Shown: one piece after another, positions 14,394 to 54,560 of the stretch | Layout of the letters: each line of letters begins with the position of its first letter | Numbering within the stretch: the stretch's first letter is position 1 | Assembly (NCBI GenBank): GCA_049651785.1 | Contig: JBASCT010000022.1 | Location: 44 to 64,043 of the forward strand | Length of the DNA stretch: 64,000 bases | Direction: 5' to 3' | Origin: Minisyncoccia bacterium | GTDB lineage: Bacteria > Patescibacteriota > Minisyncoccia > Phycocordibacterales > Zambryskibacteraceae | Made by a program: the position numbers and the translations under genes | The notes under the pieces: generated by a model | Seen by the model: only the letters and a program-made list of their open reading frames with translations | What the model was told of the DNA's origin: nothing | Database searches by the model: none

Positions 14394-14397
14394 TTAG

Positions 14398-16973: not shown

Positions 16974-16988
16974 GCTCGCGGGGAAGCA

Positions 16989-17392: not shown

Positions 17393-17395
17393 CCC

Positions 17396-17452: not shown

Positions 17453-17455
17453 TTC

Positions 17456-17884: not shown

Positions 17885-17891
17885 TTAGACA

Positions 17892-18545: not shown

Positions 18546-18546
18546 C

Positions 18547-20810: not shown

Positions 20811-21514
20811 AGCCATTTTACTCCCTTTTAATAGCCCTCCTACTTGCTCCGGCGTTTAGCGTCTCGGCGCAGGAGGTAGACATCCTCTGGCAAGGTGAGA
20901 CCTACACTCCGCCGTTTTACGAAGGTCGGGCCCTCTGGTCAAATCAGTCGAGAATTACCTTGGTCGCCATACCGCAAGGCTTAGGAAATCCGACAAGCCT
21001 CAACTATAAGTGGATAAAAAATGGCACGGTGCTTGGTAATGTGAGTGGAATCGGTAGAGGCTCTCTTTTCTTCATCGATACGGTGCTCTCAAGGCCGCAG
21101 ACGATAGAGGTGGAGATTATCGCGAGCGACAAGAGCGTTCTCGCCAAGAATTCGGTCTATGTCGTCCCGCGCCCGCCCGCCTTGGCGGTGTATGAAAATA
21201 ATCCGCTCTACGGCTTCATGTTCCACAAAGAAATCAGCGAGTATGATATGCAGAGTCCCGAAGTGGTTCTGGCCGCCTTCCCGCTATTCTTCAGCACTTC
21301 TGACCGTTCTGACTTTTCCTTGGAATACGACTGGGCGAGCAATGCCGGCGACAGAAATAAAGAAAGTTCGGTAACCTATCGTGCGCCCGAAGGGGGTTCC
21401 GGCTCGGCAAGTGTAACGGTGCGGGTCAAGAGCTTGGATAATCTTATGCAGTCGGCAAGTAAAAATTTGCTCTTAAAATTTAATAGCGAGAATATTAATA
21501 ACTTCGGATTATGA
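20807..21514 (+). CDS. Secreted hypothetical protein
   Basis: Signal peptide MKPFYSLLIALLLAPAFSVSA; translationally coupled. Confidence 0.5.
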   Translation: MKPFYSLLIALLLAPAFSVSAQEVDILWQGETYTPPFYEGRALWSNQSRITLVAIPQGLGNPTSLNYKWIKNGTVLGNVSGIGRGSLFFIDTVLSRPQTIEVEIIASDKSVLAKNSVYVVPRPPALAVYENNPLYGFMFHKEISEYDMQSPEVVLAAFPLFFSTSDRSDFSLEYDWASNAGDRNKESSVTYRAPEGGSGSASVTVRVKSLDNLMQSASKNLLLKFNSENINNFGL

Positions 21515-22353: not shown

Positions 22354-22359
22354 CAAAAA

Positions 22360-23616
22360 ATGAAAAAAATATTATTAATTTCCGGTGGAGTAATTCTCGT
22401 AATCGTCTTGGGAATTTTTTCCTGGATTCTCGTCTCCAAAGATCCAGAGGTGCCGGTGGGTGAGGCCCTGAGGGACTTTTTGCCGTTCGGTTCGGGCGAT
22501 GACTTCGTCGTGCCTCCCGGTGGGGGCGGGTTCAGCGAGGGCGGGGGCGGTGAAGATTCTTCGGCGGGCGAGGGTGGTGCTCCTGAGAAAATTCTTTTCC
22601 GTATTACTGACGTTCCCGTCGCTGGCTTCGTCGCCCTTAATAGGGGCACCTCTTCTACGGCCGTGCGCTATGCCGAGCGCGCCACGGGCCATATCTACGA
22701 AGTGAATCTTGGGAATCTTGAGAGAGCAAGGCTGACGAACCAGACCCTGCCGAAAATTTATGAGGCGCACTTCCGAGCGGACGGGAGCGCCGTCCTCTTC
22801 AGATCACTTAAAGATGATTCTGATGTAGTAGAAAATATTTCTCTCGCTCTTACACCGCCGAAGGCGACGGCCACTTCTTCGGAAGAAGAGTTTTACTCCG
22901 TTTCATCAACGCCTCTGCGCGGCGAACTTGGCTCAACTGCGGCCGGTTCCACAAACACTCTTTTCTATGTTCTTGAGGACGCGGGCTCTGTCGTCTCGTC
23001 CGCCTTTGACGGCTCGGGTCAGAAGACTCTTCTTTCTTCGCAATTCACCGACTGGGCTCTTGCTCCTTACGGCAACACGGGTCTTCTCGTTTATACCAAG
23101 GCTGGCGGCGCCAATACTCCCGGATATGCCTACACTCTTGGCGGCTCAGGAGGTCTTACTAAAGTTATCGGACCGGTTCCGGATTTGACGGCCCTTATGA
23201 GTCACGACGGCAAGAGGTTGGTTCTTTCCCAGAGTTATGCCGGAAGCATCAGATCTTTTATAAGAAATGTGGAAGATGATACCAGCTTCGAAATGTCTTC
23301 TCCCACCTTTGCCGACAAATGTGTCTGGAGCAGAGCAAGGCTTGCGGTCGTTTTCTGCGCCACTCCTTCAAACAATATTGGCTCGGGTGAGCCGAGCAAT
23401 TGGTATTTGGGCCGCACCTCGTTCCAAGACAAGATTTGGGTCTTTGATGCCGAAACAGAACTCTCGGAGCTTCTCGCCGAGCCGGCAAATGTTGTCGGTT
23501 TGGATCTCGACGTTGTCGAGCTGAAACTTTCTCCCAGGGAAGACTACCTGGTGTTTATAAATAAAAAAGATCTGTCACTCTGGGCGCTTAAGCTTGAGCC
23601 GGCCCCCGAGGAGTAG
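22360..23616 (+). CDS. Signal-anchored extracellular protein (last gene of T4SS-like operon)
   Basis: 418 aa; N-terminal TM helix, Gly-rich linker (PPGGGGFSEGGGGEDSSAGEGG), then a large probably beta-rich domain. Confidence 0.5.
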   Translation: MKKILLISGGVILVIVLGIFSWILVSKDPEVPVGEALRDFLPFGSGDDFVVPPGGGGFSEGGGGEDSSAGEGGAPEKILFRITDVPVAGFVALNRGTSSTAVRYAERATGHIYEVNLGNLERARLTNQTLPKIYEAHFRADGSAVLFRSLKDDSDVVENISLALTPPKATATSSEEEFYSVSSTPLRGELGSTAAGSTNTLFYVLEDAGSVVSSAFDGSGQKTLLSSQFTDWALAPYGNTGLLVYTKAGGANTPGYAYTLGGSGGLTKVIGPVPDLTALMSHDGKRLVLSQSYAGSIRSFIRNVEDDTSFEMSSPTFADKCVWSRARLAVVFCATPSNNIGSGEPSNWYLGRTSFQDKIWVFDAETELSELLAEPANVVGLDLDVVELKLSPREDYLVFINKKDLSLWALKLEPAPEE

Positions 23617-39452: not shown

Positions 39453-40646
39453 ATGAATAACGACCCCATTGGCAAGAATGGTAACGGGCTAGCTGATGTG
39501 GAACCAACTATTTTCAACCGTAATCAAAAATTAAAGAAACTTTTAATAATACTCTCTGCTTCTGTGTTGTTGAGTGTATTTATTTTATTTAAAAACGATA
39601 CCCCCTTTTCCTCTCGGCTTGTGCCGTCTGAGAAATTAGCACCACAATTACAAGAAGGCATCGACAATGCTAGTACTAGCGAACCTATAATACTAACCGC
39701 CCGAGGCGAGGGCGGCTATGTGATTAAGGATGGAATTCTTTATTACTTTTCTCGCGAGGTGCCCGGTGTTGATATTGCGACCCTTGAAGTTATTAACGAT
39801 TATTGGGTTAGGGATAAAAATAATGCCTATAATGGAGAAAAAATTTTTGACCATGATGAGGTAGATGTTGGGTCTCTTGAAATTCTTGATGGATATGTCA
39901 TCAAAGATAACAAAAATGTTTATTCCACTATTGGTGACAAACTACAAATTGTTCCAAATGTTGATATAACAAGCTTCCAATATGTTGGAACTTGTAAAGG
40001 GTTTTCAGGTGCCCGCGGCGAAAACTATTTTCGAGACAAGTTTAATATATACCATGCAACATATGGACAAGATTTCGCTCCAAATTTTTCGATTAAAAAA
40101 TTAGATTATATAGATACTTCATCGTTTCAATATTTAGGTTTTTACTCCCCCTTTGGACCAGGGGAGATACAGCCCTCGGTGCCCTACGCGAAGGATAAAA
40201 ACAATATCTACTATGCCTGCGGCGAGATTTTAAAAGACGCGGATCCAAATAGTTTTATAGACTTTACAGACGGTTATGCCAAGGATAAGTTAACGGTTTG
40301 GTATTTGGGCGAATTGATTGAGGGAGCAGATTCGGCGACATTTCAACCATTAACTACTAAATATTACCATAACGGATATTACTGGGGTGATTTTTACGCC
40401 AAAGACAAATCAAATGTTTACGTTGGAGGCCACGTTCTTGGTGACCTTGATCCCGCGACACTTGTAATTGTTGAAGGGTGGCTCCTGGAGGACCAAGTAT
40501 TTACTATCTACTTAAAAGATAAAAATTATGTTTACGCAGCTGCTGGTTACAAAGTAACTGGAGTTAATCCCACAGACTGTACTCCAGAAACATTCTCAAA
40601 GTGCAAAAACGATGATTACCAGAGATACAATCTAGGGCCCTTCTAG
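39453..40646 (+). CDS. DKNYY-repeat membrane-anchored protein
   Basis: N-terminal TM helix; at least seven repeats of (K/R)DKNN(I/V)YY-type units (KDKNNIYYA, KDKSNVYVG, KDKNYVYAA...). AT-richer than the flanking core genes. Confidence 0.65.
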   Translation: MNNDPIGKNGNGLADVEPTIFNRNQKLKKLLIILSASVLLSVFILFKNDTPFSSRLVPSEKLAPQLQEGIDNASTSEPIILTARGEGGYVIKDGILYYFSREVPGVDIATLEVINDYWVRDKNNAYNGEKIFDHDEVDVGSLEILDGYVIKDNKNVYSTIGDKLQIVPNVDITSFQYVGTCKGFSGARGENYFRDKFNIYHATYGQDFAPNFSIKKLDYIDTSSFQYLGFYSPFGPGEIQPSVPYAKDKNNIYYACGEILKDADPNSFIDFTDGYAKDKLTVWYLGELIEGADSATFQPLTTKYYHNGYYWGDFYAKDKSNVYVGGHVLGDLDPATLVIVEGWLLEDQVFTIYLKDKNYVYAAAGYKVTGVNPTDCTPETFSKCKNDDYQRYNLGPF

Positions 40647-40667
40647 TGCGCCCAGTAGCGGTCGAAC

Positions 40668-41498
40668 CTAGTTTTTAAAGGATTTAATTGCTTGAGCAAG
40701 CAGAATTTGTTTTTCCAAGGGTTTCTTCCAAACGCTATTTAAGCGTCTCCCATTCAATCTAACTCCCGGAGAAAAATTAATTTCTTCCTGAAACTTCTGC
40801 ATATTTTCTTTTCTGCTGATTACCACCTCGTTTGGTCTTAACACTCTCGATTCAATATTAAATTCCGAAAGAAGTTTTTGGATCAGAAAAAGTCTCGAGA
40901 CATCTTTTTGGTAGCCCCTTATTTGTCTTAAATTTCTCTTAGGCCTGAAATCCATGCAACCCTCATCATCAAAAAAAGCCCTAACAAACTCTTTTTTCAA
41001 AGCTTTGGGTAGTCGATAAATAACTTTCAGCAATTCTTTTGATTTTATTTGTAAATAAGCTCCTAGGGCCACGTTATGATAACTAATACGAGATACTCCC
41101 GTTGTTGTATTCACCCACCGCCGAGGCGGGTAATTGTAAATCTCTTTCATACAGTTTTCTACCATGTCGAGCAACGACTGATTTCGGTTGTTATAGACAC
41201 AGCTAGTCCTGCTTATTGTCCCATCAAAAATTAGATGAGCCACAAGCAAGACAGTTTTCTTCTCCCATCGGTCAAATTTCTTGAAATCCCTATCACTTTT
41301 TCCCCTTCTAGCTAAGGCAAGATTTTTTGCTCTGACACCACTAGCAGTACGAATTGATTTTATCTTTTCTGCGCCCAAGGGGATGTGGTGAATGTGAGAA
41401 TAAACTGAAGTTTTAGAGCGTCCGGTAATTTTTACTATTTCTGTTAAGGTGTGGCCCGACTTGCGTAAATTGAGGCAGCGCTTCTTAAAATTATTCAT
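40668..41498 (-). CDS. HTH + double-motif LAGLIDADG-like homing endonuclease family protein
   Basis: N-terminal HTH (LRKSGHTLTEIVKITGRSKTSVYSHI) and two LAGLIDADG-like motifs (LVAHLIFDGTIS; VRAFFDDEGCMDF). Start codon 2 nt from the tRNA-Lys 3' end. Confidence 0.65.
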   Translation of the reverse strand: MNNFKKRCLNLRKSGHTLTEIVKITGRSKTSVYSHIHHIPLGAEKIKSIRTASGVRAKNLALARRGKSDRDFKKFDRWEKKTVLLVAHLIFDGTISRTSCVYNNRNQSLLDMVENCMKEIYNYPPRRWVNTTTGVSRISYHNVALGAYLQIKSKELLKVIYRLPKALKKEFVRAFFDDEGCMDFRPKRNLRQIRGYQKDVSRLFLIQKLLSEFNIESRVLRPNEVVISRKENMQKFQEEINFSPGVRLNGRRLNSVWKKPLEKQILLAQAIKSFKN

Positions 41499-41499
41499 G

Positions 41500-41570
41500 T
41501 CCCCCCACCAGGAATCGAACCTGGATCAGCGGATTAAAAGTCCGTTGCTCTACCACTGAGCTATGGAGGG
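41500..41570 (-). tRNA. tRNA-Lys (anticodon UUU)
   Basis: Manual cloverleaf CCCTCCA-TA-GCTC-AGTGGTA-GAGC-A-ACGGA-CTTTTAA-TCCGC-TGAT-CCAGG-TTCGATT-CCTGG-TGGGGGG-A; no encoded CCA. Confidence 0.8.
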
Positions 41571-44992: not shown

Positions 44993-45066
44993 GCTCTCAT
45001 CGTTCAATGGATAGGACATAACTTTGCGGAAGTTAAAATGTAGGTTCGATTCCTACTGAGAGCACC
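44993..45066 (+). tRNA. tRNA with anticodon GCG (Arg, decoding CGC/CGU)
   Basis: Manual cloverleaf GCTCTCA-TC-GTTC-AATGGATA-GGAC-A-TAACT-TTGCGGA-AGTTA-AAAT-GTAGG-TTCGATT-CCTAC-TGAGAGC-A-CC; G37 is consistent with a CGN decoder. Confidence 0.65.
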
Positions 45067-45537
45067 TTAGAATCCGAAATACTCGAGAATTTTTTCTACA
45101 AACGGGAGAGCGTGGAACTCTTCTTTTAGAACCGAAGAAAGATTCTCGTGGAGTTCGTCGGCGTCGATTTCATCATTTAAGGGTACGATGATAAGGGGCA
45201 TGAGCATTTTTTGCGACTTGAGAATTATCTTTTTATGAGGATGCTCGACATCTATCCAAAAAGATTCGAGGGTGGAATAAGGATAAAATACCTTGCCGCG
45301 CACAAGACCCTTCTCGTCGACCGCCACATGGACATTGTTCGGCGGACGCTTGGCAAAGAGGGAGAGGGCGAAGGCGCCGACCAGAATCAGAATACCGAGG
45401 ATAATATTTTTGAAAATTATTGCGGCAACCGCGAGAGCAACAGCGACAATTCCGACCGCCCAGAACCAGTCTGAACTCCTAACTTTATGTTCGTATTCGT
45501 GGGCGTCCCACTCCATTCTGAAAGAGGGTCGTGGCAT
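45067..45537 (-). CDS. Membrane hypothetical protein
   Basis: 156 aa; two TM helices after HEYEHK; no family recognised. Confidence 0.45.
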   Translation of the reverse strand: MPRPSFRMEWDAHEYEHKVRSSDWFWAVGIVAVALAVAAIIFKNIILGILILVGAFALSLFAKRPPNNVHVAVDEKGLVRGKVFYPYSTLESFWIDVEHPHKKIILKSQKMLMPLIIVPLNDEIDADELHENLSSVLKEEFHALPFVEKILEYFGF

Positions 45538-45580
45538 AGATGGAAAAATTATATCATAATCAATATAACAAGATTACAGC

Positions 45581-46336
45581 ATGACCGAAGTACTTCTTTA
45601 TTCCGTCCTCGTGATGCTTGCCTCCCTTGTCGGCGTTTTCGCTGTCTGGCGCAACGTCGGCCGCCTTATCGAGCGCAATCTTAGCCTTTTGGTAAGTCTC
45701 TCGGCGGGCGTCTTTGTTGTCATAACTTACAACCTGATGAAGGAAACCATGGAGCACTCGAGCGGAGTGACAGAGGGGCTCGCCTGGATTCTCGGCGGAG
45801 CTTTCTTCTTCTGGCTGCTTTTTAAACTGGCACCCCTCTTCCACCACCACCACGATGCCAGCAGAGAAACGACTCCGCACTCTCGGATAGATGCGCGCCG
45901 GGTTATGGCCGGAGATGCCCTGCACAATTTCAGCGACGGCCTTCTGCTTGCCGCCTCTTTTGGGGTCAGCTCTGCCTTCGGTGTCTTAACCGCCTTGAGT
46001 ATTTTTGTTCACGAACTGGTGCAGGAGATGTCGGAGTTTTTTGTTTTGAAGCAGGCGGGCTACCAGACCAAGAAAGCGCTTATTTCCAATTTCGCCATAT
46101 CCTCGACAATTTTACTCGGCTCGCTTGTTGGGTTTTTCCTTATAGATAATTTTGAAATGTTCGAGGTACCGCTTCTGGGGCTGACAGCTGGCGCCTTCCT
46201 TGTTGTCGTCCTCGATGACCTTATTCCGCATTCAATCCGCGCCTCTAGATTAACTCAATTCTATGCCAGACACCTCGCTTGGTTTGTCATCGGGCTCGTT
46301 TTAATGTTTGTTGTTAGCTCTTTTGTTACACCCTAA
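45581..46336 (+). CDS. ZIP-family divalent metal transporter (ZupT-like)
   Basis: 251 aa; His-rich loop LFHHHHDA, conserved HNFSDGL and HELVQE motifs. Confidence 0.8.
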   Translation: MTEVLLYSVLVMLASLVGVFAVWRNVGRLIERNLSLLVSLSAGVFVVITYNLMKETMEHSSGVTEGLAWILGGAFFFWLLFKLAPLFHHHHDASRETTPHSRIDARRVMAGDALHNFSDGLLLAASFGVSSAFGVLTALSIFVHELVQEMSEFFVLKQAGYQTKKALISNFAISSTILLGSLVGFFLIDNFEMFEVPLLGLTAGAFLVVVLDDLIPHSIRASRLTQFYARHLAWFVIGLVLMFVVSSFVTP

Positions 46337-46337
46337 C

Positions 46338-46422
46338 TGGCGGAGGGTAGAGGACTCGAACCTCTAAGGGCTTTCACCCGCCGGTTTTCAAGACCGGTGC
46401 CATACCGTTAGGCGAACCCTCC
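46338..46422 (-). tRNA. tRNA-Ser (anticodon UGA), CCA encoded
   Basis: Manual fold GGAGGGT...CCGGT-CTTGAAA-ACCGG, long variable arm, T-arm AGAGG-TTCGAGT-CCTCT, ACCCTCC-G-CCA. Confidence 0.8.
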
Positions 46423-48088: not shown

Positions 48089-48619
48089 ATGCTTAAACTC
48101 TTAACAGACGAGGGCAGAGAAAAAGTTTCCGAGGAGTACAAAGTACGCCGAGTGGTCGTTATTATTTTGGCGCTTATCGTCATTACGATTATAACTATTA
48201 TCGGACTTTTGCCGTCATATGTTCTCTCAGACAGCCGCGAAGAAGAAGCACTCGCTCGTCTGCGACTCACCGAATCTGGCGGCCAGAAAGAGGGACAAGA
48301 GCTTCGCACCTGGCTTGCCGAGACCAATAAAAGACTCTCAACCATCGCGCCGAACCTTGACACCGACAAGCCCTCCAATTTCATCGCGCGCGCCATAGCC
48401 CTAAAGCCCTCGGGTATAAAAATCACCAGTTTTTCCTGGACCAAGGCAAAGGACAAAGTCACCCTTTCTCTTAGTGGTACGGCCCTGGACCGACAGACTT
48501 TGGTACGCTTCGAAAACGAGATAGAGGCGTCGGGTCTTTTCTCTGACATTACTCTGCCGATTTCTGATCTCGCCAAGGATCGCAATATCGGTTTCCAGAT
48601 AAAATTCTCGCCGATATGA
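48089..48619 (+). CDS. PilN-like bitopic pilus assembly protein
   Basis: 176 aa; N-terminal TM helix then periplasmic domain. Confidence 0.5.
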   Translation: MLKLLTDEGREKVSEEYKVRRVVVIILALIVITIITIIGLLPSYVLSDSREEEALARLRLTESGGQKEGQELRTWLAETNKRLSTIAPNLDTDKPSNFIARAIALKPSGIKITSFSWTKAKDKVTLSLSGTALDRQTLVRFENEIEASGLFSDITLPISDLAKDRNIGFQIKFSPI

Positions 48620-49137
48620 CAAACAAAAGCTCAAAACCGATTCTCATTCTCCTCCTAATTATTTTTGCCGCCCTCATTGCGGTATTGGTCTTCGGCATTC
48701 TTGACATCAGGACAAAGAACACGGAAATCTCAAGATTGGTCAACGAGGCGGATCAGGCGGTCGAGAATGAAAGACTCATCCAGTCCATAAAGGAACTCCA
48801 GAACGAAGCGGCCGGGAATCTTGAAGCCTTTGGTCAGGCGGTCTTTATGGACGACAAGCTTGTCCCTCTTATCGAGATGATAGAGGGGCTAGGCAGAAGT
48901 TTGGGCCTCGAGACGAGGATTGCTTCCGTTTCAGAGATAGAAGATAAAAAGTCGGCCGAGCCCAAAATTATTAAAATTACAATTGAGGCAACCGATGGTT
49001 CTTGGAGTTCGGCCTTCTCTTTTTTGAGAGCGATAGAAAACTTGCCGCATAGAGTTATGGTAGAAGACGCCAGTCTTTCTAAAGAAGGGGATGACTGGCG
49101 CCTGCGCCTGACCATCTCTCTCTACTCATTCAAATAA
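48616..49137 (+). CDS. PilO-like bitopic pilus assembly protein
   Basis: 173 aa; TM helix + coiled coil + C-terminal domain; overlapping stop/start. Confidence 0.45.
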   Translation: MTNKSSKPILILLLIIFAALIAVLVFGILDIRTKNTEISRLVNEADQAVENERLIQSIKELQNEAAGNLEAFGQAVFMDDKLVPLIEMIEGLGRSLGLETRIASVSEIEDKKSAEPKIIKITIEATDGSWSSAFSFLRAIENLPHRVMVEDASLSKEGDDWRLRLTISLYSFK

Positions 49138-49138
49138 C

Positions 49139-49462
49139 ATGGAAGAAAAGAAAAACATATTTAACATAAGCGGCAAACTCCACATCCATTTTCTCCATTG
49201 GGGGAGGAGTCCGGAGAGGGATTGGAAGATAATATTTGTCTTTGCCACCATTTTCGTTTTCTGCTCCATCGCCACGAGCGCTTTTATCTTCGTCAAAATA
49301 GACAGAGGCGAAATATTCCTTGCTGAAAAAGTTAACGAAGAATCTGGAGAAACTCTCGACTTTAAAAAACTCGAAGAAACGGCTTCGTACTATAAAAACA
49401 AAGAACTCGAATTGGAAAAAATTATAAGGTCAAAACCGCAGTACGTTGACCCGTCGCTCTGA
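49139..49462 (+). CDS. Small membrane protein (PilP-position gene)
   Basis: 107 aa; one TM helix. Confidence 0.4.
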   Translation: MEEKKNIFNISGKLHIHFLHWGRSPERDWKIIFVFATIFVFCSIATSAFIFVKIDRGEIFLAEKVNEESGETLDFKKLEETASYYKNKELELEKIIRSKPQYVDPSL

Positions 49463-49484
49463 TAAAGCTACGATTGAGGCACCT

Positions 49485-49556
49485 GTCCCCGTAGCTTAAT
49501 GGATAAAGTAGAGCTCTTCTAAGGCTTTGATGCAGGTTCGATTCCTGCCGGGGACA
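49485..49556 (+). tRNA. tRNA-Arg (anticodon UCU)
   Basis: Manual fold GTCCCCG-TA-GCTT-AATGGATA-AAGT-A-GAGCT-CTTCTAA-GGCTT-TGAT-GCAGG-TTCGATT-CCTGC-CGGGGAC-A. Confidence 0.75.
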
Positions 49557-49622
49557 CAAATTGACTTCTCTCTTCCAGAGTGCTATTTTCGCCTCTAGCC
49601 TAACTATTTTGGGGAGAGACAA

Positions 49623-50261
49623 ATGGAATCTCCGAATGTGTTACCGTTCTTTGACGATCCCGGAAAATTTTTCGGCAATTGTGATATCGGCGATAAGGAG
49701 GCGCCACGCCACATAGTCGAGGCCCAAGAGCCCCGGTACCAGTACCACGCGATTCTGACAAAGGATGTTGGGCAAGTTTCTGGAGAAGACTTCCTTCGAT
49801 ACACGAGACGCCTTGTTGCAATCTGCTACCGCGTTTACCGAAGGGCGGAATGGGAACTGACCGCCGATTCAAGGGGTCCGATTAGTTTCTATATTTCCTC
49901 GAGTGGGAAGTATCAGAAACCGCCGTACTTTACGAATGACGTGAGCCAGCTCAACGAGAAGGTTTTCTTGGCGATGTTCAGGATGTCGTACTTCATGAAG
50001 CTTCGTGTCAATCAGAGGCCTATCTCTGGTCGGCAACCAAGCTCTTACGCCAAGATTTTCTGGCATTGTTACAAACCCGACATGCTCTTCGTGGCGGCCA
50101 GGCGCGACCATCGTGATGACTATCGAGGTACGGCCGCCGCCCTTGAGGGTCTGCTTTCTCGGAAATTTCTCTATGTTCCGAAAATGGCACCAACCGATGG
50201 CTTCTCCGTGGATCTCGGCATGGACATCTACAACAGGGAAGAAATGGAATTGCCTTCCTGA
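49623..50261 (+). CDS. Hypothetical protein immediately downstream of tRNA-Arg
   Basis: 212 aa; no recognisable family. Confidence 0.45.
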   Translation: MESPNVLPFFDDPGKFFGNCDIGDKEAPRHIVEAQEPRYQYHAILTKDVGQVSGEDFLRYTRRLVAICYRVYRRAEWELTADSRGPISFYISSSGKYQKPPYFTNDVSQLNEKVFLAMFRMSYFMKLRVNQRPISGRQPSSYAKIFWHCYKPDMLFVAARRDHRDDYRGTAAALEGLLSRKFLYVPKMAPTDGFSVDLGMDIYNREEMELPS

Positions 50262-50302
50262 TTTTCGACACAGGGCGTCCAACGATAGGGCGCTCTTTCT
50301 TT

Positions 50303-51004
50303 TTACAAACTTATCTCTCGAACGGATTGATTGCGATGAATTAGTTCGTCATTTCTGACGGAGAGGAAAAATTCGTACTGGTTTCTTGGGTTCCTGCCGT
50401 ACCAACGCAGGAATTCGCTCTCAACCGGTTTTTTCTTCAGCTCCTCGCCTCGGGTTTCGAGAAATTTTGAGTATTGTTCAAATGCGTGTTGTTCGAAAAG
50501 ATAATTAAGCTCGAGAGACGCCCTGGGGCTGAAAAGGTACAAAAGGTAAGAGGTCCAGAAATAGAAGAAAGCGAAAAGCATCGGCACAAAAGTGTGTCTA
50601 AGGAAGCCGGCCCTCTTCTCTTTTTTTGCCAATTGCGTTATGACGATTACATGCATGGTCTCGTTGTCTTGCGCTAGGCGGGCGTAGCGCGTGACATTTG
50701 AGAGTCGGAGGGCGCGTTTCTCATCCGAATAAAACATTGTAAGAAGTGTATAGGCGACCGAGGACCAAGAGTGGTAGGGAACACGGGCGATAACTTCCAC
50801 GGCACGAAATTTCAGATAAGACGGCTTGAAGCCGTAGAAAAGATTGCCGCAATTAACGAGAAAACCCCCGAGAATCTGGGGCAGGAATCCGGGGCGGTAG
50901 CTGTCGAAAGGTTTTTTATAAGCTTCGAGTTGTTCCGGGTTATTGAGTTCTAGGTTGAGCGCTTCTAACCCTGGTTTATCTTTTGGTGTATCCATTAGAA
51001 ACAT
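50303..51004 (-). CDS. Alternative oxidase / plastid terminal oxidase family di-iron carboxylate protein
   Basis: All four AOX iron-binding helices are present: EVIARVP (LETVAAVPG-like), NETMHV (NERMHL-like), EQHAFEQY (EEEAIHSY-like), RNDELIHRN (RADEAHHRDVNH-like). The track's longer GTG start at 51106 lies inside tRNA-Leu and is rejected. Confidence 0.75.
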   Translation of the reverse strand: MFLMDTPKDKPGLEALNLELNNPEQLEAYKKPFDSYRPGFLPQILGGFLVNCGNLFYGFKPSYLKFRAVEVIARVPYHSWSSVAYTLLTMFYSDEKRALRLSNVTRYARLAQDNETMHVIVITQLAKKEKRAGFLRHTFVPMLFAFFYFWTSYLLYLFSPRASLELNYLFEQHAFEQYSKFLETRGEELKKKPVESEFLRWYGRNPRNQYEFFLSVRNDELIHRNQSVREISL

Positions 51005-51025
51005 TATAACTGACAAAGTTACTAC

Positions 51026-51112
51026 TGGTGCCGAGGAGGAGATTTGAACTCCTACGAGGGTTCCCTCACTGCGTTCTGAACACAGCGTGTCTACCAATTT
51101 CACCACCTCGGC
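51026..51112 (-). tRNA. tRNA-Leu (anticodon CAG)
   Basis: Manual fold GCCGAGG-TG-GTG-AAATTGGTAGA-CAC-G-CTGTG-TTCAGAA-CGCAG-long variable arm-AGGAG-TTCAAAT-CTCCT-CCTCGGC-A-CCA. Confidence 0.8.
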
Positions 51113-51120
51113 TTTGCTAG

Positions 51121-51194
51121 TGCGCGCTGAGGGATTTGAACCCCCGGCCTACTGTGTGTAAAACAGTCGCTCTAACCAACTGAGCTAAGCGCGC
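51121..51194 (-). tRNA. tRNA-Val (anticodon UAC)
   Basis: Manual fold GCGCGCT-TA-GCTC-AGTTGGTTA-GAGC-G-ACTGT-TTTACAC-ACAGT-AGGCC-GGGGG-TTCAAAT-CCCTC-AGCGCGC-A. Confidence 0.8.
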
Positions 51195-51275
51195 GTGCTT
51201 CAGTTATACACTATTATTCTTAAAGCAACAATATTAGACTGGAGTAACTCATACTAGGTATGTTATACTTTACTT

Positions 51276-51944
51276 ATGAAAGTTAAAGAAAGAGAACATG
51301 CTCGTAAGTTGCGGAAAAAAGGCAAGTCAATGAACCAAATTATTGAAGAAACTGGATATTCTAAGGCTAGTGTAAGTTTTTGGACTCGTGACATTAAGCT
51401 AACTCCTTATCAAAAAAATAAGATATCGTTGCGAGGAAGGAGTATTGAATCAATTGAGAGAAGAAGAGAGAGTCGCCTTGCAAATATAGCAAATAAAAGG
51501 CGGGAGATAATAGACTTGGCAAAAGGAGATTTTACGAGTCTAACCATAAGGGAACTAAAATTAGTAGGAGCTATGATTTACTGGGGGGAAGGTAGAAAGG
51601 CCGGAAACTGGACTGTTAGTTTGGCAAATAGCGATCCGTTAATTATTAAGGTTATGATGAGATTTTTTCGGGAAGTGTGCAAGGTGCCGGAGGAAAAATT
51701 TCGTGGACATATACACACTTTTGAAAATGCTACGATATCTAAGACTGAAAGATACTGGTCCGAAATATCTGGTATACAACGAAAACAGTTTTATAAAACA
51801 TATACAAAGCCAAGCAAAGGAGGTTTGCAAAAAAGACAAACATTACCCTACGGGACCCTAGACATATATGTCAATGACACAAAATTATTTCTTACAATTA
51901 AGGGGTGGATTGAGAAAATTGCTGAATTAGCCATAAATTCATGA
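51276..51944 (+). CDS. HTH + LAGLIDADG-like protein, paralogue of the 40668..41498 gene
   Basis: N-terminus LRKKGKSMNQIIEETGYSKASVSFW aligns with LRKSGHTLTEIVKITGRSKTSVYSHI of the tRNA-Lys-adjacent gene. Motif LVGAMIYWGEG corresponds to LVAHLIFDGTI. Confidence 0.5.
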   Translation: MKVKEREHARKLRKKGKSMNQIIEETGYSKASVSFWTRDIKLTPYQKNKISLRGRSIESIERRRESRLANIANKRREIIDLAKGDFTSLTIRELKLVGAMIYWGEGRKAGNWTVSLANSDPLIIKVMMRFFREVCKVPEEKFRGHIHTFENATISKTERYWSEISGIQRKQFYKTYTKPSKGGLQKRQTLPYGTLDIYVNDTKLFLTIKGWIEKIAELAINS

Positions 51945-52699
51945 TTGACCTATCTAAAAATATTCTTTACGAAGACTCCGACTTGCTGGTGATAAACAAG
52001 CCAGCTGGACTCGTGGTGCACCCAGACGGTAGGACCAAAGAGCCGAGTGTCTCGGAGTGGTTTGAGAAAAAATTTCCCGAAGCGCGCAGCGTGGGCGAGC
52101 CCTTAGAGCTTGAAACAGGAGAAATTTTAGAACGCACGGGGGTGGTACATCGGATAGACCGAGAAACTTCTGGGGCCCTAATTCTTGCTAAAACAAAAAA
52201 AGGACACGCGGCGCTCAAAAAACAATTCCAAAATAGAGAGGTTTCAAAAATTTACCACCTTTTTGTCGCGGGCGACCTCAAGCGTGACCAAGGCACGATT
52301 GATTTGGCGATAGGCAGAAGTATTAATGACTTCCGCAAACGCTCGGCAGAACGCATTACTCGAGGCGAGAAAAGAGAAGCCCTGACGCACTTCAGAGTGC
52401 TTAGGAAACCATCCGATAAGACCTCCACTTTCGTGGAAGCAAGACCAAAAACAGGTCGAACCCATCAGATTAGAGTTCATTTCAAAGCTATTGGACACCC
52501 GGTTGTTGCCGATAAACTTTACGCGCCGAAAGGGAAATCGATTCTTGGATTCAAGAGACTAGCACTCCACGCTCGTGCCGTAACTTTCAAAAATCTCTCC
52601 GGTCAAGAAGTTGCCGTCGAAGCGCCGTACCCAGAAGATTTCGAACAAGCACTTTCTGGTCTAAAAGAAAACGCCCCGCATCACTTGGGGGCGTCTTGA
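51941..52699 (+). CDS. RluA-family pseudouridine synthase
   Basis: 252 aa; LVINKPAGLVVHP and catalytic HRIDRETSGALILAKT motif. Confidence 0.85.
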   Translation: MIDLSKNILYEDSDLLVINKPAGLVVHPDGRTKEPSVSEWFEKKFPEARSVGEPLELETGEILERTGVVHRIDRETSGALILAKTKKGHAALKKQFQNREVSKIYHLFVAGDLKRDQGTIDLAIGRSINDFRKRSAERITRGEKREALTHFRVLRKPSDKTSTFVEARPKTGRTHQIRVHFKAIGHPVVADKLYAPKGKSILGFKRLALHARAVTFKNLSGQEVAVEAPYPEDFEQALSGLKENAPHHLGAS

Positions 52700-53379
52700 G
52701 GAGCGAGTTCAAGCTCGCACTGAGTATGATTGTCGGAATGGAGACATCCGGCGAAGTGCTCAGAGGCGATGCTGTAGGCGGCTCTAGCCGCTTTACGAGG
52801 GGGTCGCTTGTGACCGTCTCGTGCGCGTTCGCCAGTTAGAACAATGTTATTTTCCGTCTTCGTTACCCGGAGCTCACCACTCGGGTGCAAATAAAAGCCG
52901 AAGAGGTACGGGGACCAGGCGCGTCTTTTGAACCTGACTGTGACTTTTGACTTATCTTTCGGATCAACGGTCAGCACGTGCTCATGAAGAGACTTGATGC
53001 TATCCAGGTCCTTTTCAACCTCAAGAAAACCAAGAACTTCTGCGAGCATCTTTTGGTACAGTTCGTACGGCACATCTACCGCCACCCGTAGGCCGGACGG
53101 CTCGATGCGCCCATGACGGCGTCTTTCTATGTCTTCACCGCTCTCGCTGTCCTCATTGACGAGCCAGTTGATGAAATAGTAATCGCCAAGACACTCTCCC
53201 ACGACTTCTATCATGCTCATGAGGTCGCCATAGCCAGGCAGCTTGAAGCGGCGCTCGACAAACTTCACCCCAACTGCTGGAGGCCAGTTTTCCGATTTCA
53301 CAAAGTACTCCTCTAAAACCGTTCCGCTCGCCAATATAGCAGAAACGGCTTCCGCCGAGTAATGGACACTGGCGGCCAA
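52681..53379 (-). CDS. Hypothetical protein
   Basis: 232 aa; no confident family. Confidence 0.4.
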   Translation of the reverse strand: MAASVHYSAEAVSAILASGTVLEEYFVKSENWPPAVGVKFVERRFKLPGYGDLMSMIEVVGECLGDYYFINWLVNEDSESGEDIERRRHGRIEPSGLRVAVDVPYELYQKMLAEVLGFLEVEKDLDSIKSLHEHVLTVDPKDKSKVTVRFKRRAWSPYLFGFYLHPSGELRVTKTENNIVLTGERARDGHKRPPRKAARAAYSIASEHFAGCLHSDNHTQCELELAPQDAPK

Positions 53380-53827: not shown

Positions 53828-53911
53828 GGACGGGCAATGCGCGGGTGGCGAAATTGGTAGACGCACTACCTTGAGGTGGTAGCGCTGGCAACGGCGTGGA
53901 GGTTCAAATCC
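53828..53911 (+). tRNA. tRNA-Leu (anticodon GAG)
   Basis: Manual fold GCGCGGG-TG-GCG-AAATTGGTAGA-CGC-A-CTACC-TTGAGGT-GGTAG-long variable arm-GGAGG-TTCAAAT-CCTCT-CCCGCGC-A. Confidence 0.75.
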
Positions 53912-53924
53912 TCTCCCGCGCACT

Positions 53925-54473
53925 ATGTTTTTTACCGGTAAGGGTGATAAGGGTACCACGAAGTTTTTCGGCACGGATGCCAGGCGTGTTTCGAAAAGCT
54001 CGAATGTGGCGGAAGCGCTCGGGAGTTTAGACGAGCTCAATTCTCTTCTCGGGCTTGTAAAGGTGAAATGTCTTGAGAAAAAGACCGAGGTTTATGACAA
54101 CTTGGCTGAGACGGTAGAAAACGTTCAGGAAAATATTTTTATCATCTCGGCCAATATCGCTGGGGCGAACAAAAATATCACGGAGGAGAAAGTGAAGGAA
54201 ATGGAGGAGATTATCCGCCAGTGCGAAAAGACTCTGCCGCCGATAAAAACTTTTACCGTTGCCGGCGGCACGGAGCTCTCGGCACTCTTTGATTTCGCCA
54301 GAACCCTGGCGCGCCGGGCCGAGAGGCGAGTGGTCTCAGTCAATGAAGAGCTTCCTATCGCGCCACCCGAAATTCTGAAGTATATGAATCGACTCTCAAG
54401 TCTTCTTTTTGCCCTCGCTCGACTCTCGAATCACCTTTCTGGTATAAAAGAGCGCGCTCCGCGATATACTTAA
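53925..54473 (+). CDS. ATP:cob(I)alamin adenosyltransferase, PduO type
   Basis: 182 aa; N-terminus TGKGDKGTTKFFGTDARRVSKSSNVAEALGSLDELNSLLG matches the PduO/MMAB family signature. Confidence 0.8.
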   Translation: MFFTGKGDKGTTKFFGTDARRVSKSSNVAEALGSLDELNSLLGLVKVKCLEKKTEVYDNLAETVENVQENIFIISANIAGANKNITEEKVKEMEEIIRQCEKTLPPIKTFTVAGGTELSALFDFARTLARRAERRVVSVNEELPIAPPEILKYMNRLSSLLFALARLSNHLSGIKERAPRYT

Positions 54474-54487
54474 AACGGAGAATTAAT

Positions 54488-54560
54488 GGCGGCTATAGTT
54501 TAGTGGTAGAACTCCAGCTTGTGGAGCTGGTCGCGAGAGTTCGATTCTCTCTAGCCGCCC
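54488..54560 (+). tRNA. tRNA-His (anticodon GUG) with genomically encoded G-1
   Basis: Manual fold G(-1)-GCGGCTA-TA-GTTT-AGTGGTA-GAAC-T-CCAGC-TTGTGGA-GCTGG-TCGCG-AGAGT-TCGATTC-TCTCT-AGCCGCC-C; G-1 pairs with discriminator C. Confidence 0.8.

What the first reader, a model, noticed from the sequence alone, without database searches (positions are those of the whole stretch)
49485..51944. Alternative-oxidase-family gene in a tRNA-bracketed accessory segment with a second HTH-LAGLIDADG paralogue
Between tRNA-Arg(UCU) and the tRNA-Leu(CAG)/tRNA-Val(UAC) pair lie an orphan 212-aa gene and a 233-aa protein with all four di-iron helices of the alternative oxidase / plastid terminal oxidase family (EVIARVP, NETMHV, EQHAFEQY, RNDELIHRN). 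Immediately beyond the tRNAs is a second HTH + LAGLIDADG-like gene whose N-terminus aligns with the tRNA-Lys-associated one. A quinol-oxidising AOX is unexpected if this is a fermentative reduced-genome organism without a quinone-based respiratory chain. It may instead serve O2 scavenging, use a host- or partner-derived quinol, or be a recent horizontal acquisition. The two tRNA-adjacent homing-endonuclease-like paralogues suggest a family of elements that target tRNA loci.
Basis: partly seen in the sequence, partly recalled or inferred. Interest (0 to 1): 0.7.

Follow-up and report, generated by a model that had tools for sequence, protein, structure and literature searches.

The report
Conserved di-iron oxidase in ultra-small bacteria
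The gene is a genuine alternative-oxidase/plastid-terminal-oxidase-type oxygen-reducing enzyme, but it is not a recent foreign import: it belongs to a strongly conserved clade found in at least 586 species of reduced-genome Patescibacteria, organisms that are reported to lack quinone synthesis and a respiratory chain.

Summary
Three tRNAs bracket a lineage-restricted 212-aa gene and an AOX-family gene at 50303-50995(-) (230 aa, or 233 aa from 51004).

The protein passes Pfam AOX. It keeps all six iron ligands and the catalytic Tyr. Its AlphaFold model matches only trypanosome AOX among solved structures. Its motifs and tree position put it nearer PTOX than mitochondrial AOX, in a separate clade with its own ligand spacing.

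- At least 586 species genomes carry it, and the best 80 all appear to be Patescibacteria.
- It is better conserved than RuvA or ribosomal protein S20 in the same syntenic block.
- Its composition is typical of the window.
- No integrase or att-like repeats flank it.

Only its position is lineage-specific: a local move into the tRNA-Arg/Leu/Val cluster.

The most likely function is a non-pumping quinol:O2 oxidase that scavenges O2 or vents reducing power, probably using scavenged quinone. This is inferred, not shown.

The neighbouring 222-aa HTH protein is only weakly LAGLIDADG-like.

The parts
49485..49557 (+). tRNA-Arg(UCU); one edge of the inter-tRNA slot that holds the orphan and the oxidase
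   Evidence: ARAGORN; Rfam tRNA, 68.8 bits. In L090 and many metagenome loci this tRNA lies directly beside tRNA-Leu(cag) or tRNA-Val(tac).
49623..50261 (+). Lineage-restricted 212-aa gene of unknown function, convergent with the oxidase
   Evidence: No family hit. Only 2 database proteins match. Syntenic 39-41% copies in L001 and L007, and absent in L008. dN 0.56. Typical GC of 0.513.
50272..50296 (.). Terminator-like hairpin between the two convergent genes
   Evidence: Consensus scan: 9-bp stem, 6 G-C pairs, T-rich tail. This is a pattern match only.
50303..50995 (-). AOX/PTOX-superfamily di-iron oxidase, 230 aa (an alternative start at 51004 gives 233 aa)
   Evidence: Pfam PF01786, 36.9 bits. 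Identical to an NCBI protein named 'alternative oxidase [Minisyncoccia bacterium]'. Invariant E70, E115, H118, E171, E220, H223 and Y178. AlphaFold pLDDT 93. The 14 best PDB fold matches are all trypanosome AOX, TM 0.61-0.66.
51003..51008 (-). TATAAT box 7 nt upstream of the Met4 ATG; a possible leaderless promoter for the oxidase
   Evidence: Read directly from the sequence. Inference only. The gene could instead be co-transcribed with the upstream tRNAs.
51026..51112 (-). tRNA-Leu(CAG), co-directional with the oxidase and about 30 nt upstream of it
   Evidence: ARAGORN; Rfam.
51120..51194 (-). tRNA-Val(UAC), the constant divergent partner of the 222-aa HTH gene
   Evidence: ARAGORN; Rfam, 74.7 bits. 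The same tRNA lies 75-111 nt upstream of the gene in 69 of 70 loci.
51195..51275 (.). Conserved divergent promoter region between tRNA-Val and the HTH gene
   Evidence: Alignment of 58 distinct intergenic regions shows conserved TTATACA next to the tRNA, and TAGACT-N17/18-TATACT-N6-ATG. The spacing implies a leaderless mRNA; this is an inference.
51276..51944 (+). 222-aa protein: N-terminal HTH plus one weakly LAGLIDADG-like domain; its stop overlaps the RluD start
40668..41498 (-). 276-aa HTH plus two-motif LAGLIDADG protein abutting tRNA-Lys(UUU) (41499-41570). With the DKNYY gene at 39453-40646 it forms a low-GC stretch that related loci lack.
   Evidence: Pfam LAGLIDADG_3, 28.5 bits. GC 0.381, z = -2.15. 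L051, L059 and L064 have no relative of either gene by tblastn; unk146 is followed by tRNA-Lys in L059 and L064 and by TrmH in all three. DKNYY family.
44993..45537 (.). tRNA-Arg(GCG) plus a DUF5673 membrane protein: the slot where the oxidase sits in many other genomes
   Evidence: RuvA-S20-tRNA-Arg(gcg)-DUF5673-AOX-...-RuvX-PilM is seen in L024, L034, L036, L042, L051, L052, L053, L059, L061 and L064. The window has a ZIP transporter there instead.

Best explanation
What it is. The 230-aa gene encodes a functional member of the membrane-associated di-iron carboxylate oxidase superfamily (AOX/PTOX, Pfam PF01786). It belongs to a distinct clade that is widespread in Patescibacteria of the Paceibacteria/Parcubacteria type. 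That clade is closer to PTOX than to mitochondrial AOX, and sister to a second, poorly known bacterial group.

How it was inherited. It has been inherited mainly vertically and is under strong purifying selection. In the window's lineage it has only shifted a few kilobases, into the tRNA-Arg(UCU)/tRNA-Leu(CAG)/tRNA-Val(UAC) cluster.

How it most likely works (inferred, not shown). The protein sits on the cytoplasmic face of the membrane through hydrophobic helices. It takes electrons from a lipid-soluble quinol and reduces O2 to water at the di-iron centre, without pumping protons. These organisms are reported to lack quinone synthesis and a respiratory chain. The quinone is therefore probably scavenged from a host or partner, and reduced by a flavoenzyme. 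The physiological role would be O2 removal and disposal of excess reducing power, not energy conservation.

Shown: family membership, intact active-site residues, fold, breadth, conservation and synteny.
Inferred: the quinol substrate, the source of the quinone, the electron donor and the physiological role.
For: Family membership:
- Pfam AOX scores above its cut-off.
- In 26 clade and out-clade sequences E70, N114-E115-H118, E171-H173, D219-E220-H223 and Y178 are invariant.
- A clade profile finds only trypanosome AOX in the PDB. It aligns NEtMH to NERMH (E162/H165), the third-helix E to E213, the Tyr to Y220, and DEliH to DEAEH (E266/H269).
- AlphaFold pLDDT is 93 and pTM 0.90.
- The 14 best fold matches are all TAO. 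The next matches (COQ7, bacterioferritin) have E near 1.

PTOX-side placement:
- All 112 representatives with a first-helix motif have AR.PY, and most have E-x-HA.
- One neighbouring cluster contains a Nannochloropsis 'immutans' protein.
- A neighbour-joining tree gives three clades.
- Ligand spacing is 45/56/49 in this clade, against 39/52/~74 in PTOX.

Breadth and inheritance:
- 1191 relatives at 90% clustering.
- At least 586 GTDB species genomes.
- Within a shared block RuvA-S20-tRNA-Arg-DUF5673-AOX-...-RuvX-PilM, AOX is 62-68% identical to the window's copy. RuvA is 47-51%, S20 42-49%, TrmH 45-51%, RuvX 36-45% and PilM 28%.
- dN is 0.125-0.15 with dS saturated.
- GC and codon usage are typical of the window.

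Role:
- An FAD-linked D-2-hydroxyacid-dehydrogenase-like gene (PF01565 + PF02913; best NCBIfam matches YdiJ and GlcD) is next to the oxidase in 10 of about 80 loci. It occurs in two different orientations and at 46-78% identity.
- A member of the sister group lies in a Fur-rubrerythrin-rubredoxin-MsrAB oxidative-stress cluster.
- C7867-001 carries a homologue and was reported to lack quinone biosynthesis.
Against: - No activity, substrate or expression data exist.
- No conserved operon partner was found. The commonest neighbour family occurs in only 12 of 79 loci.
- No quinone-related gene lies in the 64-kb window apart from a DoxX-family membrane protein.
- The rest of the genome could not be searched, so both 'no quinone pathway' and 'a quinone reductase exists' rest on literature about related genomes.
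- Similarity to the only solved AOX is low (16-19% identity; profile E about 0.02-0.04). Pfam aligns only the C-terminal half.
- The tree is neighbour-joining without support values and without a true AOX outgroup.
- High conservation could partly reflect transfer among Patescibacteria. The gene's position does vary.
Confidence: 0.55

Rival explanations
1. One reading: the oxidase and the orphan form a recently acquired accessory island, inserted between tRNA genes from an unrelated donor.
For: - The tRNA-Arg(tct)/Leu(cag)/Val(tac) genes are contiguous in L090 and close together in many loci. AOX lies between them only in the window, L001, L007 and L008.
- The adjacent orphan is lineage-specific.
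- One published survey read a single CPR AOX hit as a transfer from Proteobacteria (PMC9540462).
Against: - At least 586 species genomes carry a relative. All 80 best loci have Patescibacteria-type gene neighbourhoods or names.
- The gene sits in the same collinear chromosomal region in more than 10 distant genomes, and is more conserved than neighbouring housekeeping genes.
- GC 0.468 (z = -0.47) and unremarkable codon usage (rank 49 of 64).
- No integrase, and no att-like repeat of a tRNA end.
- No relatives in viral contigs.
- Its nearest non-Patescibacterial relatives are only 27-37% identical.
Confidence: 0.06
2. The protein is a di-iron enzyme of the AOX fold that does not oxidise a quinol. 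It might accept electrons directly from a reduced flavoprotein, such as the adjacent FAD-linked dehydrogenase, or act as an oxygenase or hydroxylase on a lipid or other small molecule.
For: - The organisms are reported to lack quinone synthesis.
- The clade has its own ligand spacing (45/56/49) and its own conserved N-terminal extension.
- TAO T219, which contacts inhibitors [own knowledge], is Gln in this clade.
- The FAD-linked oxidase neighbour lacks the Fe-S/CCG half that links E. coli YdiJ to quinones: the match covers only model positions 22-539 of 1018.
- Related di-iron four-helix enzymes such as COQ7 are hydroxylases [own knowledge].
Against: - Every characterised PF01786 member is a quinol oxidase [own knowledge].
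- The ligands, the Tyr and the Asp before the fourth-helix Glu are all retained.
- The long hydrophobic helix at 134-158, typical of the membrane-facing surface, is retained.
- The best fold match is specifically TAO, not COQ7.
Confidence: 0.22
3. The oxidase is an ordinary terminal oxidase of a short but complete endogenous chain. These bacteria make or remodel their own quinone by genes not yet recognised, and use the enzyme for routine aerobic redox balance.
For: - Some Parcubacteria carry quinone-dependent enzymes: cytochrome bd in C7867-001 and cytochrome bo3 in C7867-007 and -008, and a VKOR-family protein in L089.
- A DoxX-family protein is in the window.
- The very strong conservation suggests a central role.
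Against: - Published genome surveys of these lineages report no quinone biosynthesis genes and no NADH:quinone dehydrogenase.
- Nothing of the kind is in the 64-kb window or within about 4 genes of the oxidase in 79 loci.
Confidence: 0.12

Closest known systems
Plastid (plastoquinol) terminal oxidase, PTOX/IMMUTANS, of plastids, cyanobacteria and cyanophages
   Same: - Same Pfam family.
- Same six iron ligands and Tyr.
- Shared PTOX-type signatures: E-x-x-ARVPY in helix 1 and E-x-HA in helix 3 (His where AOX has Glu).
- The local similarity extends to '...SPR...E.HA..(Q/T)Y.KFL...GEELK' [comparison with the Arabidopsis sequence is from memory].
- The nearest named relatives are PTOX.
   Different: - Only about 30-37% identical.
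- A separate clade in the tree.
- Helix 2 reads QDNETMHV, not SWNE(L/M)HHL.
- Ligand spacing is 45/56/49 against 39/52/~74, so it lacks the long PTOX insertion before helix 4.
- The host is non-photosynthetic and has no plastoquinone.
Mitochondrial and proteobacterial alternative oxidase (AOX), e.g. trypanosome TAO (PDB 3VV9)
   Same: - Same fold (TM 0.61-0.66).
- Ligands align to E162/H165, E213 and E266/H269, and the Tyr aligns to Y220.
- A long hydrophobic helix, as expected for a protein bound to one face of the membrane.
- Presumably the same non-pumping four-electron reduction of O2.
   Different: - 16-19% identity.
- phmmer with the single sequence misses TAO.
- Helix 1 is ARVPY, not AGVPG, and helix 3 is E-x-HA, not EEEA.
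- Spacing is 45/56/49 against 39/51/53 for TAO.
- Different N-terminal region.
Unnamed bacterial 'group II' AOX-like proteins (QDNEQWHL / FEDHAEHEY / DERxHK)
   Same: - Sister clade in the tree.
- Nearly identical ligand spacing, 45/57/47.
- Similar size (about 230-280 aa).
   Different: - 27-37% identity.
- Found in larger genomes in varied contexts: a Fur-rubrerythrin-rubredoxin-Msr cluster, beside rubrerythrin and G6PD, or between luciferase-like oxidoreductases.
- Its taxonomy was not established here.
Cytochrome bo3 and bd quinol oxidases reported in some CPR bacteria
   Same: They are O2-reducing, quinol-dependent enzymes found in genomes without quinone synthesis. They are interpreted as O2 scavengers or adaptations to oxic habitats (PMC4508563, PMC8407418).
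   Different: - Unrelated haem proteins made of several subunits.
- Rare and attributed to lateral transfer. One survey found oxygen reductases in 0.6% of Patescibacteria single-cell genomes, and it searched only for those two families (PMC7507113).
- The di-iron oxidase is a single gene, is widespread in this lineage, and was not covered by those surveys.
LAGLIDADG homing endonucleases and their domesticated relatives such as WhiA (for the 222-aa and 276-aa genes)
   Same: - N-terminal HTH followed by a helix ending in an acidic residue plus Gly (GEG in the 222-aa protein; DG and EG in the 276-aa protein).
- The 276-aa protein passes Pfam LAGLIDADG_3.
   Different: - It is free-standing: not in an intron or intein.
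- It sits at a fixed site next to tRNA-Val(UAC) with a conserved promoter, which fits a resident gene at least as well as a mobile one.

Membership tests
AOX/PTOX di-iron carboxylate oxidase superfamily (Pfam PF01786) | Sequence match to the family model above the curated threshold | tested here: met
   36.9 bits against a gathering score of 22.7, E = 3.9e-9, covering residues 111-225 only. All 120 listed homologues carry PF01786.
AOX/PTOX di-iron carboxylate oxidase superfamily (Pfam PF01786) | Six iron ligands on four helices: E, E-x-x-H, E, E-x-x-H | tested here: met
   E70, E115/H118, E171 and E220/H223 are invariant in 26 sequences. Helices 2-4 align to TAO E162/H165, E213 and E266/H269. 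Helix 1 was assigned by motif and by the structural match.
AOX/PTOX di-iron carboxylate oxidase superfamily (Pfam PF01786) | Conserved active-site Tyr (TAO Y220) | tested here: met
   Y178 is invariant and aligns to TAO Y220.
AOX/PTOX di-iron carboxylate oxidase superfamily (Pfam PF01786) | Helical-bundle fold of the solved AOX | tested here: met
   pLDDT 93. The 14 top PDB matches are all TAO chains (TM 0.61-0.66, about 213 aligned columns); other ferritin-like folds have E near 1.
AOX/PTOX di-iron carboxylate oxidase superfamily (Pfam PF01786) | Binding to one face of the membrane through hydrophobic or amphipathic helices | tested here: inconclusive
   One strongly hydrophobic stretch is centred on residues 147-151 (Kyte-Doolittle 1.3-1.5, below a typical transmembrane value), within predicted helix 134-158. 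This is consistent but was not tested directly. Some homologues add a C-terminal hydrophobic tail.
AOX/PTOX di-iron carboxylate oxidase superfamily (Pfam PF01786) | Quinol:O2 oxidoreductase activity, insensitive to cyanide | not testable with these tools
   Needs biochemistry or complementation.
AOX/PTOX di-iron carboxylate oxidase superfamily (Pfam PF01786) | A quinone pool in the same cell | not testable with these tools
   Only 64 kb of the genome is available and it holds no quinone genes. The literature reports none in related genomes, including C7867-001, which carries a homologue.
Mitochondrial-type AOX in the strict sense | AOX-type motifs (helix 1 ...A(A/G)VPG..., helix 3 LEEEA) and ligand spacing of about 39/51/53 | tested here: not met
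   Helix 1 is ARVPY, helix 3 is E-Q-H-A, and spacing is 45/56/49. phmmer does not find TAO.
PTOX in the strict sense | PTOX-type helix 1 and helix 3 signatures (ARVPY; E-x-HA) | tested here: met
PTOX in the strict sense | Placement inside the PTOX clade, the helix 2 signature SWNE(L/M)HHL, and the long insertion before helix 4 | tested here: not met
   Separate clade, sister to group II. Helix 2 is QDNETMHV. The helix 3 to helix 4 ligand distance is 49, against a PTOX median of 74.5. The tree has no support values.
LAGLIDADG homing endonuclease (222-aa protein, 51276-51944) | Match to a LAGLIDADG family model | tested here: not met
   No Pfam, NCBIfam or PDB-sequence hit. There is only an indirect link through hhalign to the 276-aa protein (probability 74%).
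LAGLIDADG homing endonuclease (222-aa protein, 51276-51944) | The alpha-beta-beta-alpha-beta-beta-alpha core fold | tested here: inconclusive
   [not shown]
LAGLIDADG homing endonuclease (222-aa protein, 51276-51944) | Acidic catalytic residue followed by Gly at the end of the motif helix | tested here: met
   G104-E105-G106 and K108 are invariant in 22 sequences. The equivalence to the catalytic Asp of I-CreI is my own alignment by eye.
LAGLIDADG homing endonuclease (222-aa protein, 51276-51944) | Mobility: presence/absence polymorphism at a defined target site | tested here: inconclusive
   The gene is absent from the closest relatives L001, L007 and L008, which keep tRNA-Val(tac), but those loci are rearranged. 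Elsewhere it is at a fixed site in 69 of 70 loci. Its GC is lower than the flanks in 29 of 29 loci but tracks host GC.
LAGLIDADG homing endonuclease (276-aa protein, 40668-41498) | Match to a LAGLIDADG family model | tested here: met
   PF14528 LAGLIDADG_3 scores 28.5 bits against 22.5 over residues 168-241. There are weak hits to intein-containing proteins.

The most novel reading that the evidence does not exclude
A third, previously undescribed branch of the AOX/PTOX superfamily is a near-core, vertically inherited gene of Paceibacteria-type Patescibacteria, and has at least one relative in an archaeal genome. In cells that make no quinone and have no respiratory chain, it would be the main way these ultra-small symbionts deal with O2. 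It would run either on quinone taken from the host membrane or on a non-quinone donor such as a partner flavoprotein. If so, surveys that looked only for haem-copper and bd oxidases have underestimated the oxygen metabolism of these lineages.
Probability: 0.3. Interest if true: 0.75.

Novelty: new member of a known kind. Interest (0 to 1): 0.5.

Why it matters
Patescibacteria (CPR) are usually described as fermentative symbionts without electron transport. Published searches for oxygen reductases in them looked only for haem-copper and cytochrome bd oxidases, and found almost none (PMC7507113).

A single-gene di-iron oxidase that is present in hundreds of species, and is more conserved than a ribosomal protein, would make O2 handling a common and strongly selected trait in this lineage. 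It also gives a concrete, testable question: where does the electron carrier come from in a cell that cannot make quinone?

In the searched literature I found no paper that discusses this clade. One survey saw a single CPR hit and read it as a transfer from Proteobacteria (PMC9540462).

The tight pairing of an HTH/LAGLIDADG-like gene with tRNA-Val(UAC) is a separate small puzzle. It bears on how homing-endonuclease-derived proteins persist in reduced genomes.

Tried and rejected
- Single-sequence search of the PDB found no AOX. A clade profile and a fold search were needed.
- NCBIfam has no model for the oxidase.
- Looking up the window's own contig by exact protein failed for the oxidase. For the 222-aa protein it returned only short contigs, so the rest of the genome could not be screened for quinone or respiratory genes.
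- A search for a conserved operon partner found no family in more than 12 of 79 loci. VKOR is not near the oxidase in any fetched locus. DoxX is only syntenic at about 5 kb.
- Viral contigs hold no relative of the oxidase or of the 222-aa protein, so a phage auxiliary-gene origin was dropped.
- No att-like direct repeats flank 49558-51025, so an integrative-island reading was dropped.
- The low GC of the 222-aa gene looked like evidence of recent transfer. This was rejected as decisive because the gene is lower than its flanks in 29 of 29 loci and tracks host GC.
- dN/dS could not be computed properly because dS is saturated.
- Foldseek and a PDB profile search gave nothing for the 222-aa protein. 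PHROGs gave only a weak HTH match.
- Literature searches pairing 'alternative oxidase' or 'AOX' with Parcubacteria, Patescibacteria or CPR found nothing relevant apart from one passing mention. 'Ubiquinol oxidase' papers deal with cyo and cyd only.
- Cluster look-ups for the nearest non-Patescibacterial relatives returned almost no names, so the taxonomy of 'group II' remains open.

Full report
**1. What is at the coordinates**

ARAGORN and Rfam agree on three tRNAs: tRNA-Arg(UCU) at 49485-49557(+), tRNA-Leu(CAG) at 51026-51112(-) and tRNA-Val(UAC) at 51120-51194(-). No other RNA family is found in 48500-53000.

Two convergent genes lie between them:
- A 212-aa ORF at 49623-50261(+).
- An ORF at 50303-51106(-) whose upstream end overlaps tRNA-Leu. 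The latter is the NCBI start and the position where all homologues begin.

A terminator-like hairpin (50272-50296) separates the two stop codons. Beyond the tRNAs lies a 222-aa gene (51276-51944, +). Its stop overlaps the start of an RluD-type pseudouridine synthase.

By eye, the window is from a reduced-genome Patescibacterium. It carries dnaA/dnaN, ribosomal proteins, pilM/N/O and RuvABX, and no respiratory genes. The identical oxidase protein is recorded from a 'Minisyncoccia bacterium' MAG.

**2. The oxidase is a real AOX/PTOX-family protein**

- Pfam AOX scores 36.9 bits against a cut-off of 22.7, though only over residues 111-225.
- In an alignment of 26 sequences reaching down to 27% identity, these residues are invariant: E70, N114-E115-H118, E171-H173-A174, Y178 and D219-E220-H223.
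- A profile of that alignment finds only trypanosome alternative oxidase (TAO) in the PDB. It aligns these residues to TAO E162/H165, E213, Y220 and E266/H269.
- The AlphaFold model is confident (pLDDT 93, pTM 0.90).
- Its 14 best matches among solved structures are all TAO chains (TM 0.61-0.66). COQ7 and bacterioferritins follow far behind.

**3. It is not a typical AOX, and not a typical PTOX**

All 112 representatives with a recognisable first helix have AR.PY. Most have E-x-HA in helix 3. These are PTOX-type rather than AOX-type signatures. One neighbouring cluster contains a Nannochloropsis 'immutans' protein.

A neighbour-joining tree (no support values, midpoint rooted) gives three clades:
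- Photosynthetic-type PTOX.
- An unnamed bacterial 'group II'.
- The Patescibacterial clade, sister to group II.

Spacing between the four ligand glutamates supports the split:

| Clade | Spacing |
|---|---|
| Patescibacterial clade | 45/56/49 |
| Group II | 45/57/47 |
| PTOX | 39/52/~74 |
| TAO (from its residue numbers) | 39/51/53 |

I therefore file it in the superfamily, but in neither named subfamily.

**4. It is widespread, conserved and mostly vertically inherited**

Breadth:
- 1191 relatives were found at 90% clustering. The top 120 are 66-86% identical and 228-272 aa long. Where named, they come from Kaiser-, Adler- and Yonath-bacteria, Paceibacterota and Parcubacteria.
- At 50% clustering the crown of the clade collapses to essentially one cluster.
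The best 80 are all Patescibacteria-type. They include C7867-001, C7867-004 and a complete 721-kb genome.
- Some record titles ('uncultured Candidatus Saccharibacteria', 'Bdellovibrionales') look like catch-all labels, and I did not verify them.

Synteny:
- In L001 and L007 (oxidase 80-83% identical) the whole neighbourhood matches the window.
- In at least 10 more distant genomes the gene lies in the block RuvA-S20-tRNA-Arg(gcg)-DUF5673-AOX-...-RuvX-PilM.
- There the oxidase is 62-68% identical to the window's copy. RuvA is 47-51%, S20 42-49%, TrmH 45-51%, RuvX 36-45% and PilM 28%.
- It is thus about as conserved as ribosomal protein L19.

Selection and composition:
- dN is 0.125-0.15 against the nearest relatives, with dS saturated.
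- GC (0.468, z = -0.47) and codon usage are ordinary for the window.
- No att-like repeats flank the segment.
- No relative is in viral contigs.

Recent foreign acquisition is therefore not supported.

**5. What is true about the 'tRNA-bracketed segment'**

The gene's position varies within one tRNA-rich region of about 12 kb. Three arrangements were seen:
- After tRNA-Arg(gcg)-DUF5673.
- Between the cobalamin adenosyltransferase gene and tRNA-His (L021, L044, L027).
- Between tRNA-Arg(tct) and tRNA-Leu(cag)/Val(tac), as in the window. This occurs only in the window, L001, L007 and L008.

L090 keeps the three tRNAs contiguous. None of 80 metagenome loci centred on the 222-aa gene has the oxidase within 3 kb. 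L008 has the oxidase alone between the tRNAs, without the orphan.

The window's arrangement is therefore a local relocation, and the orphan is a later, lineage-specific addition. The orphan is a real gene (39-41% syntenic copies) with no detectable relatives elsewhere.

**6. Function**

No conserved operon partner exists; the commonest neighbour family is in 12 of 79 loci. Two leads bear on the role.

- An FAD-linked oxidase (PF01565 + PF02913; best NCBIfam matches are the N-terminal half of D-2-hydroxyglutarate dehydrogenase YdiJ, and GlcD) is adjacent in 10 loci.
  - It is co-directional in seven loci, with gaps of 0-23 bp in three of them. It is divergent in three others.
  - The two sets are only 46-48% identical to each other.
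  - Adjacency kept in two orientations suggests a functional link to a flavin dehydrogenase that could feed electrons in.
- A group II member lies between a Fur-family regulator with four rubrerythrin-domain genes (one fused to a SpoIIE phosphatase domain) and a rubredoxin on one side, and MsrAB on the other. This is a classic oxidative-stress cluster. Another lies near a rubrerythrin gene.

Related genomes are reported to lack quinone synthesis. C7867-001, which carries a homologue, is explicitly described that way (PMC4508563; PMC8407418).

Taken together, the best-supported reading is a non-pumping quinol:O2 oxidase used for O2 removal and redox relief with scavenged quinone. Bacteria that respire on exogenous quinone are known (my own knowledge).

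The substrate, donor and role are inferences. A non-quinol substrate cannot be excluded. I could not screen the rest of this genome.

**7. The HTH/LAGLIDADG-like genes**

*The 276-aa protein.* It lies next to tRNA-Lys and passes Pfam LAGLIDADG_3.

*The 222-aa protein, evidence on fold and relatedness:*
- No family hit.
- 564 homologues at 60-93% identity.
- Invariant G104-E105-G106.
- A model with pLDDT 82.
- Its link to the 276-aa protein is weak but reproducible.

*The 222-aa protein, genomic setting:*
- In 69 of 70 metagenome loci with enough upstream sequence, the gene is preceded at 75-111 nt (median 92) by a divergent tRNA-Val(UAC).
- RluD follows within 400 nt in only 44 of 65 loci. The tRNA link is thus tighter than the general synteny.
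- The intergenic region carries a conserved TAGACT-N17/18-TATACT-N6-ATG, which implies a leaderless mRNA.
- More distant homologues lie next to tRNA-Met and tRNA-Ile.
- The gene is missing from the closest relatives L001, L007 and L008.
- It is AT-rich relative to its flanks in 29 of 29 loci, but it tracks host GC. This argues for long residence rather than recent arrival.

*The window's 276-aa gene and its neighbour.* This gene and the neighbouring DKNYY-family gene are both low-GC. L051, L059 and L064 have no relative of either gene; unk146 is followed by tRNA-Lys in L059 and L064 and by TrmH in all three.

Whether the 222-aa protein is an active homing endonuclease or a domesticated DNA-binding protein remains open.

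**8. Comparison with the literature, and novelty**

No paper in the searched library pairs 'alternative oxidase' with Parcubacteria. For CPR and Patescibacteria the only relevant item is an AOX survey that found one CPR hit and called it a transfer from Proteobacteria.

Work on oxygen metabolism in these lineages deals with cytochrome bo3 and bd only. One survey that searched only those families found oxygen reductases in 0.6% of Patescibacteria single-cell genomes.

The gene itself is already named 'alternative oxidase' in NCBI records. It is therefore a new member of a known kind. The under-reported points are the size, conservation and distinctness of its clade, and the missing electron carrier.

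A relative at 45% identity lies beside an archaeal RNA polymerase operon: RpoH, split RpoB and RpoA'. This hints that the clade reaches into small archaea.

**9. Verdict**

- 'Recent acquisition' is rejected.
- Interest is moderate. The family is known and annotated, but its prevalence in organisms thought to lack any such chemistry is worth following up.

Noticed in passing
L092:5001-5696 (protein P0124): A relative of the oxidase (45% identical, basal in the Patescibacterial clade) lies beside an archaeal-type RNA polymerase operon (Rpb5/RpoH, split RpoB, RpoA'). The clade apparently extends to an archaeon, possibly one of the ultra-small DPANN type.
   Followed up: partly
L093:3949-4833 (protein P0143): A member of the sister 'group II' sits between a Fur-family regulator with four rubrerythrin-domain genes (one fused to a SpoIIE phosphatase domain) and a rubredoxin on one side, and a fused MsrA/MsrB on the other. 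This is an oxidative-stress cluster. Other group II members sit near rubrerythrin/G6PD (L095) or between two luciferase-like oxidoreductases (L094).
   Followed up: partly
L069, L079, L085, L077, L078, L083, L086 (upstream, same strand); L048, L068, L073 (divergent): An FAD-linked oxidase of about 550 aa (GlcD/YdiJ-N-terminal type) is adjacent to the oxidase in 10 of about 80 loci, in two orientations and at 46-78% identity. It is a candidate electron-donating partner.
   Followed up: partly
window 44993-46422, 49485-51194 and 53839-54560, compared with L021, L027, L034-L064: The oxidase gene occupies at least three different slots, each flanked by tRNA genes, within the same collinear region of about 12 kb in different lineages. 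The surrounding housekeeping order is kept.
   Followed up: partly
window 39453-41570: Two low-GC genes (a 397-aa DKNYY-family protein, GC 0.388, and the 276-aa LAGLIDADG protein, GC 0.381) sit in the window between the DNA polymerase III delta-C-like gene and tRNA-Lys. L051, L059 and L064 have no relative of either gene there; tRNA-Lys was confirmed only in L059 and L064.
   Followed up: partly
window 51195-51290 and 50990-51010: Both the 222-aa gene and the oxidase have a -10-like box 6-7 nt before the ATG and no room for a ribosome-binding site, which suggests leaderless mRNAs. The box before the 222-aa gene is conserved across 58 distinct loci.
   Followed up: partly
window 10888-11541: A 217-aa ORF with the lowest GC in the window (0.355). 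By eye it resembles an IS200/REP-associated tyrosine transposase. It was not tested against any family library.
   Followed up: no
L089:1547-2644: A 365-aa VKOR-family membrane protein (a quinone-dependent disulfide oxidoreductase family) lies in a Parcubacterial locus near the tRNA/222-aa-gene region. It shows that quinone-using enzymes occur in these lineages. None was found near the oxidase in the fetched loci.
   Followed up: partly
window 52681-53379: A 232-aa gene without family hits lies between RluD and ribosomal protein L19. It is kept in position in L001 and L007 but at only 33-35% identity, so it is another fast-evolving lineage-specific gene next to highly conserved ones.
   Followed up: no
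window 13269-23616: A run of about ten same-strand genes encodes membrane or secreted proteins and, by eye, a VirB4-like ATPase (18547-20427). It looks like a type IV secretion or conjugation-like cluster beside yidC/rnpA/dnaA/dnaN. It was not tested.
   Followed up: no
L007-L086 record titles: Many genomes that carry the oxidase are titled 'uncultured Candidatus Saccharibacteria bacterium' or 'uncultured Bdellovibrionales bacterium', although their gene neighbourhoods match Parcubacteria or Moranbacteria loci. The labels look unreliable.
   Followed up: no
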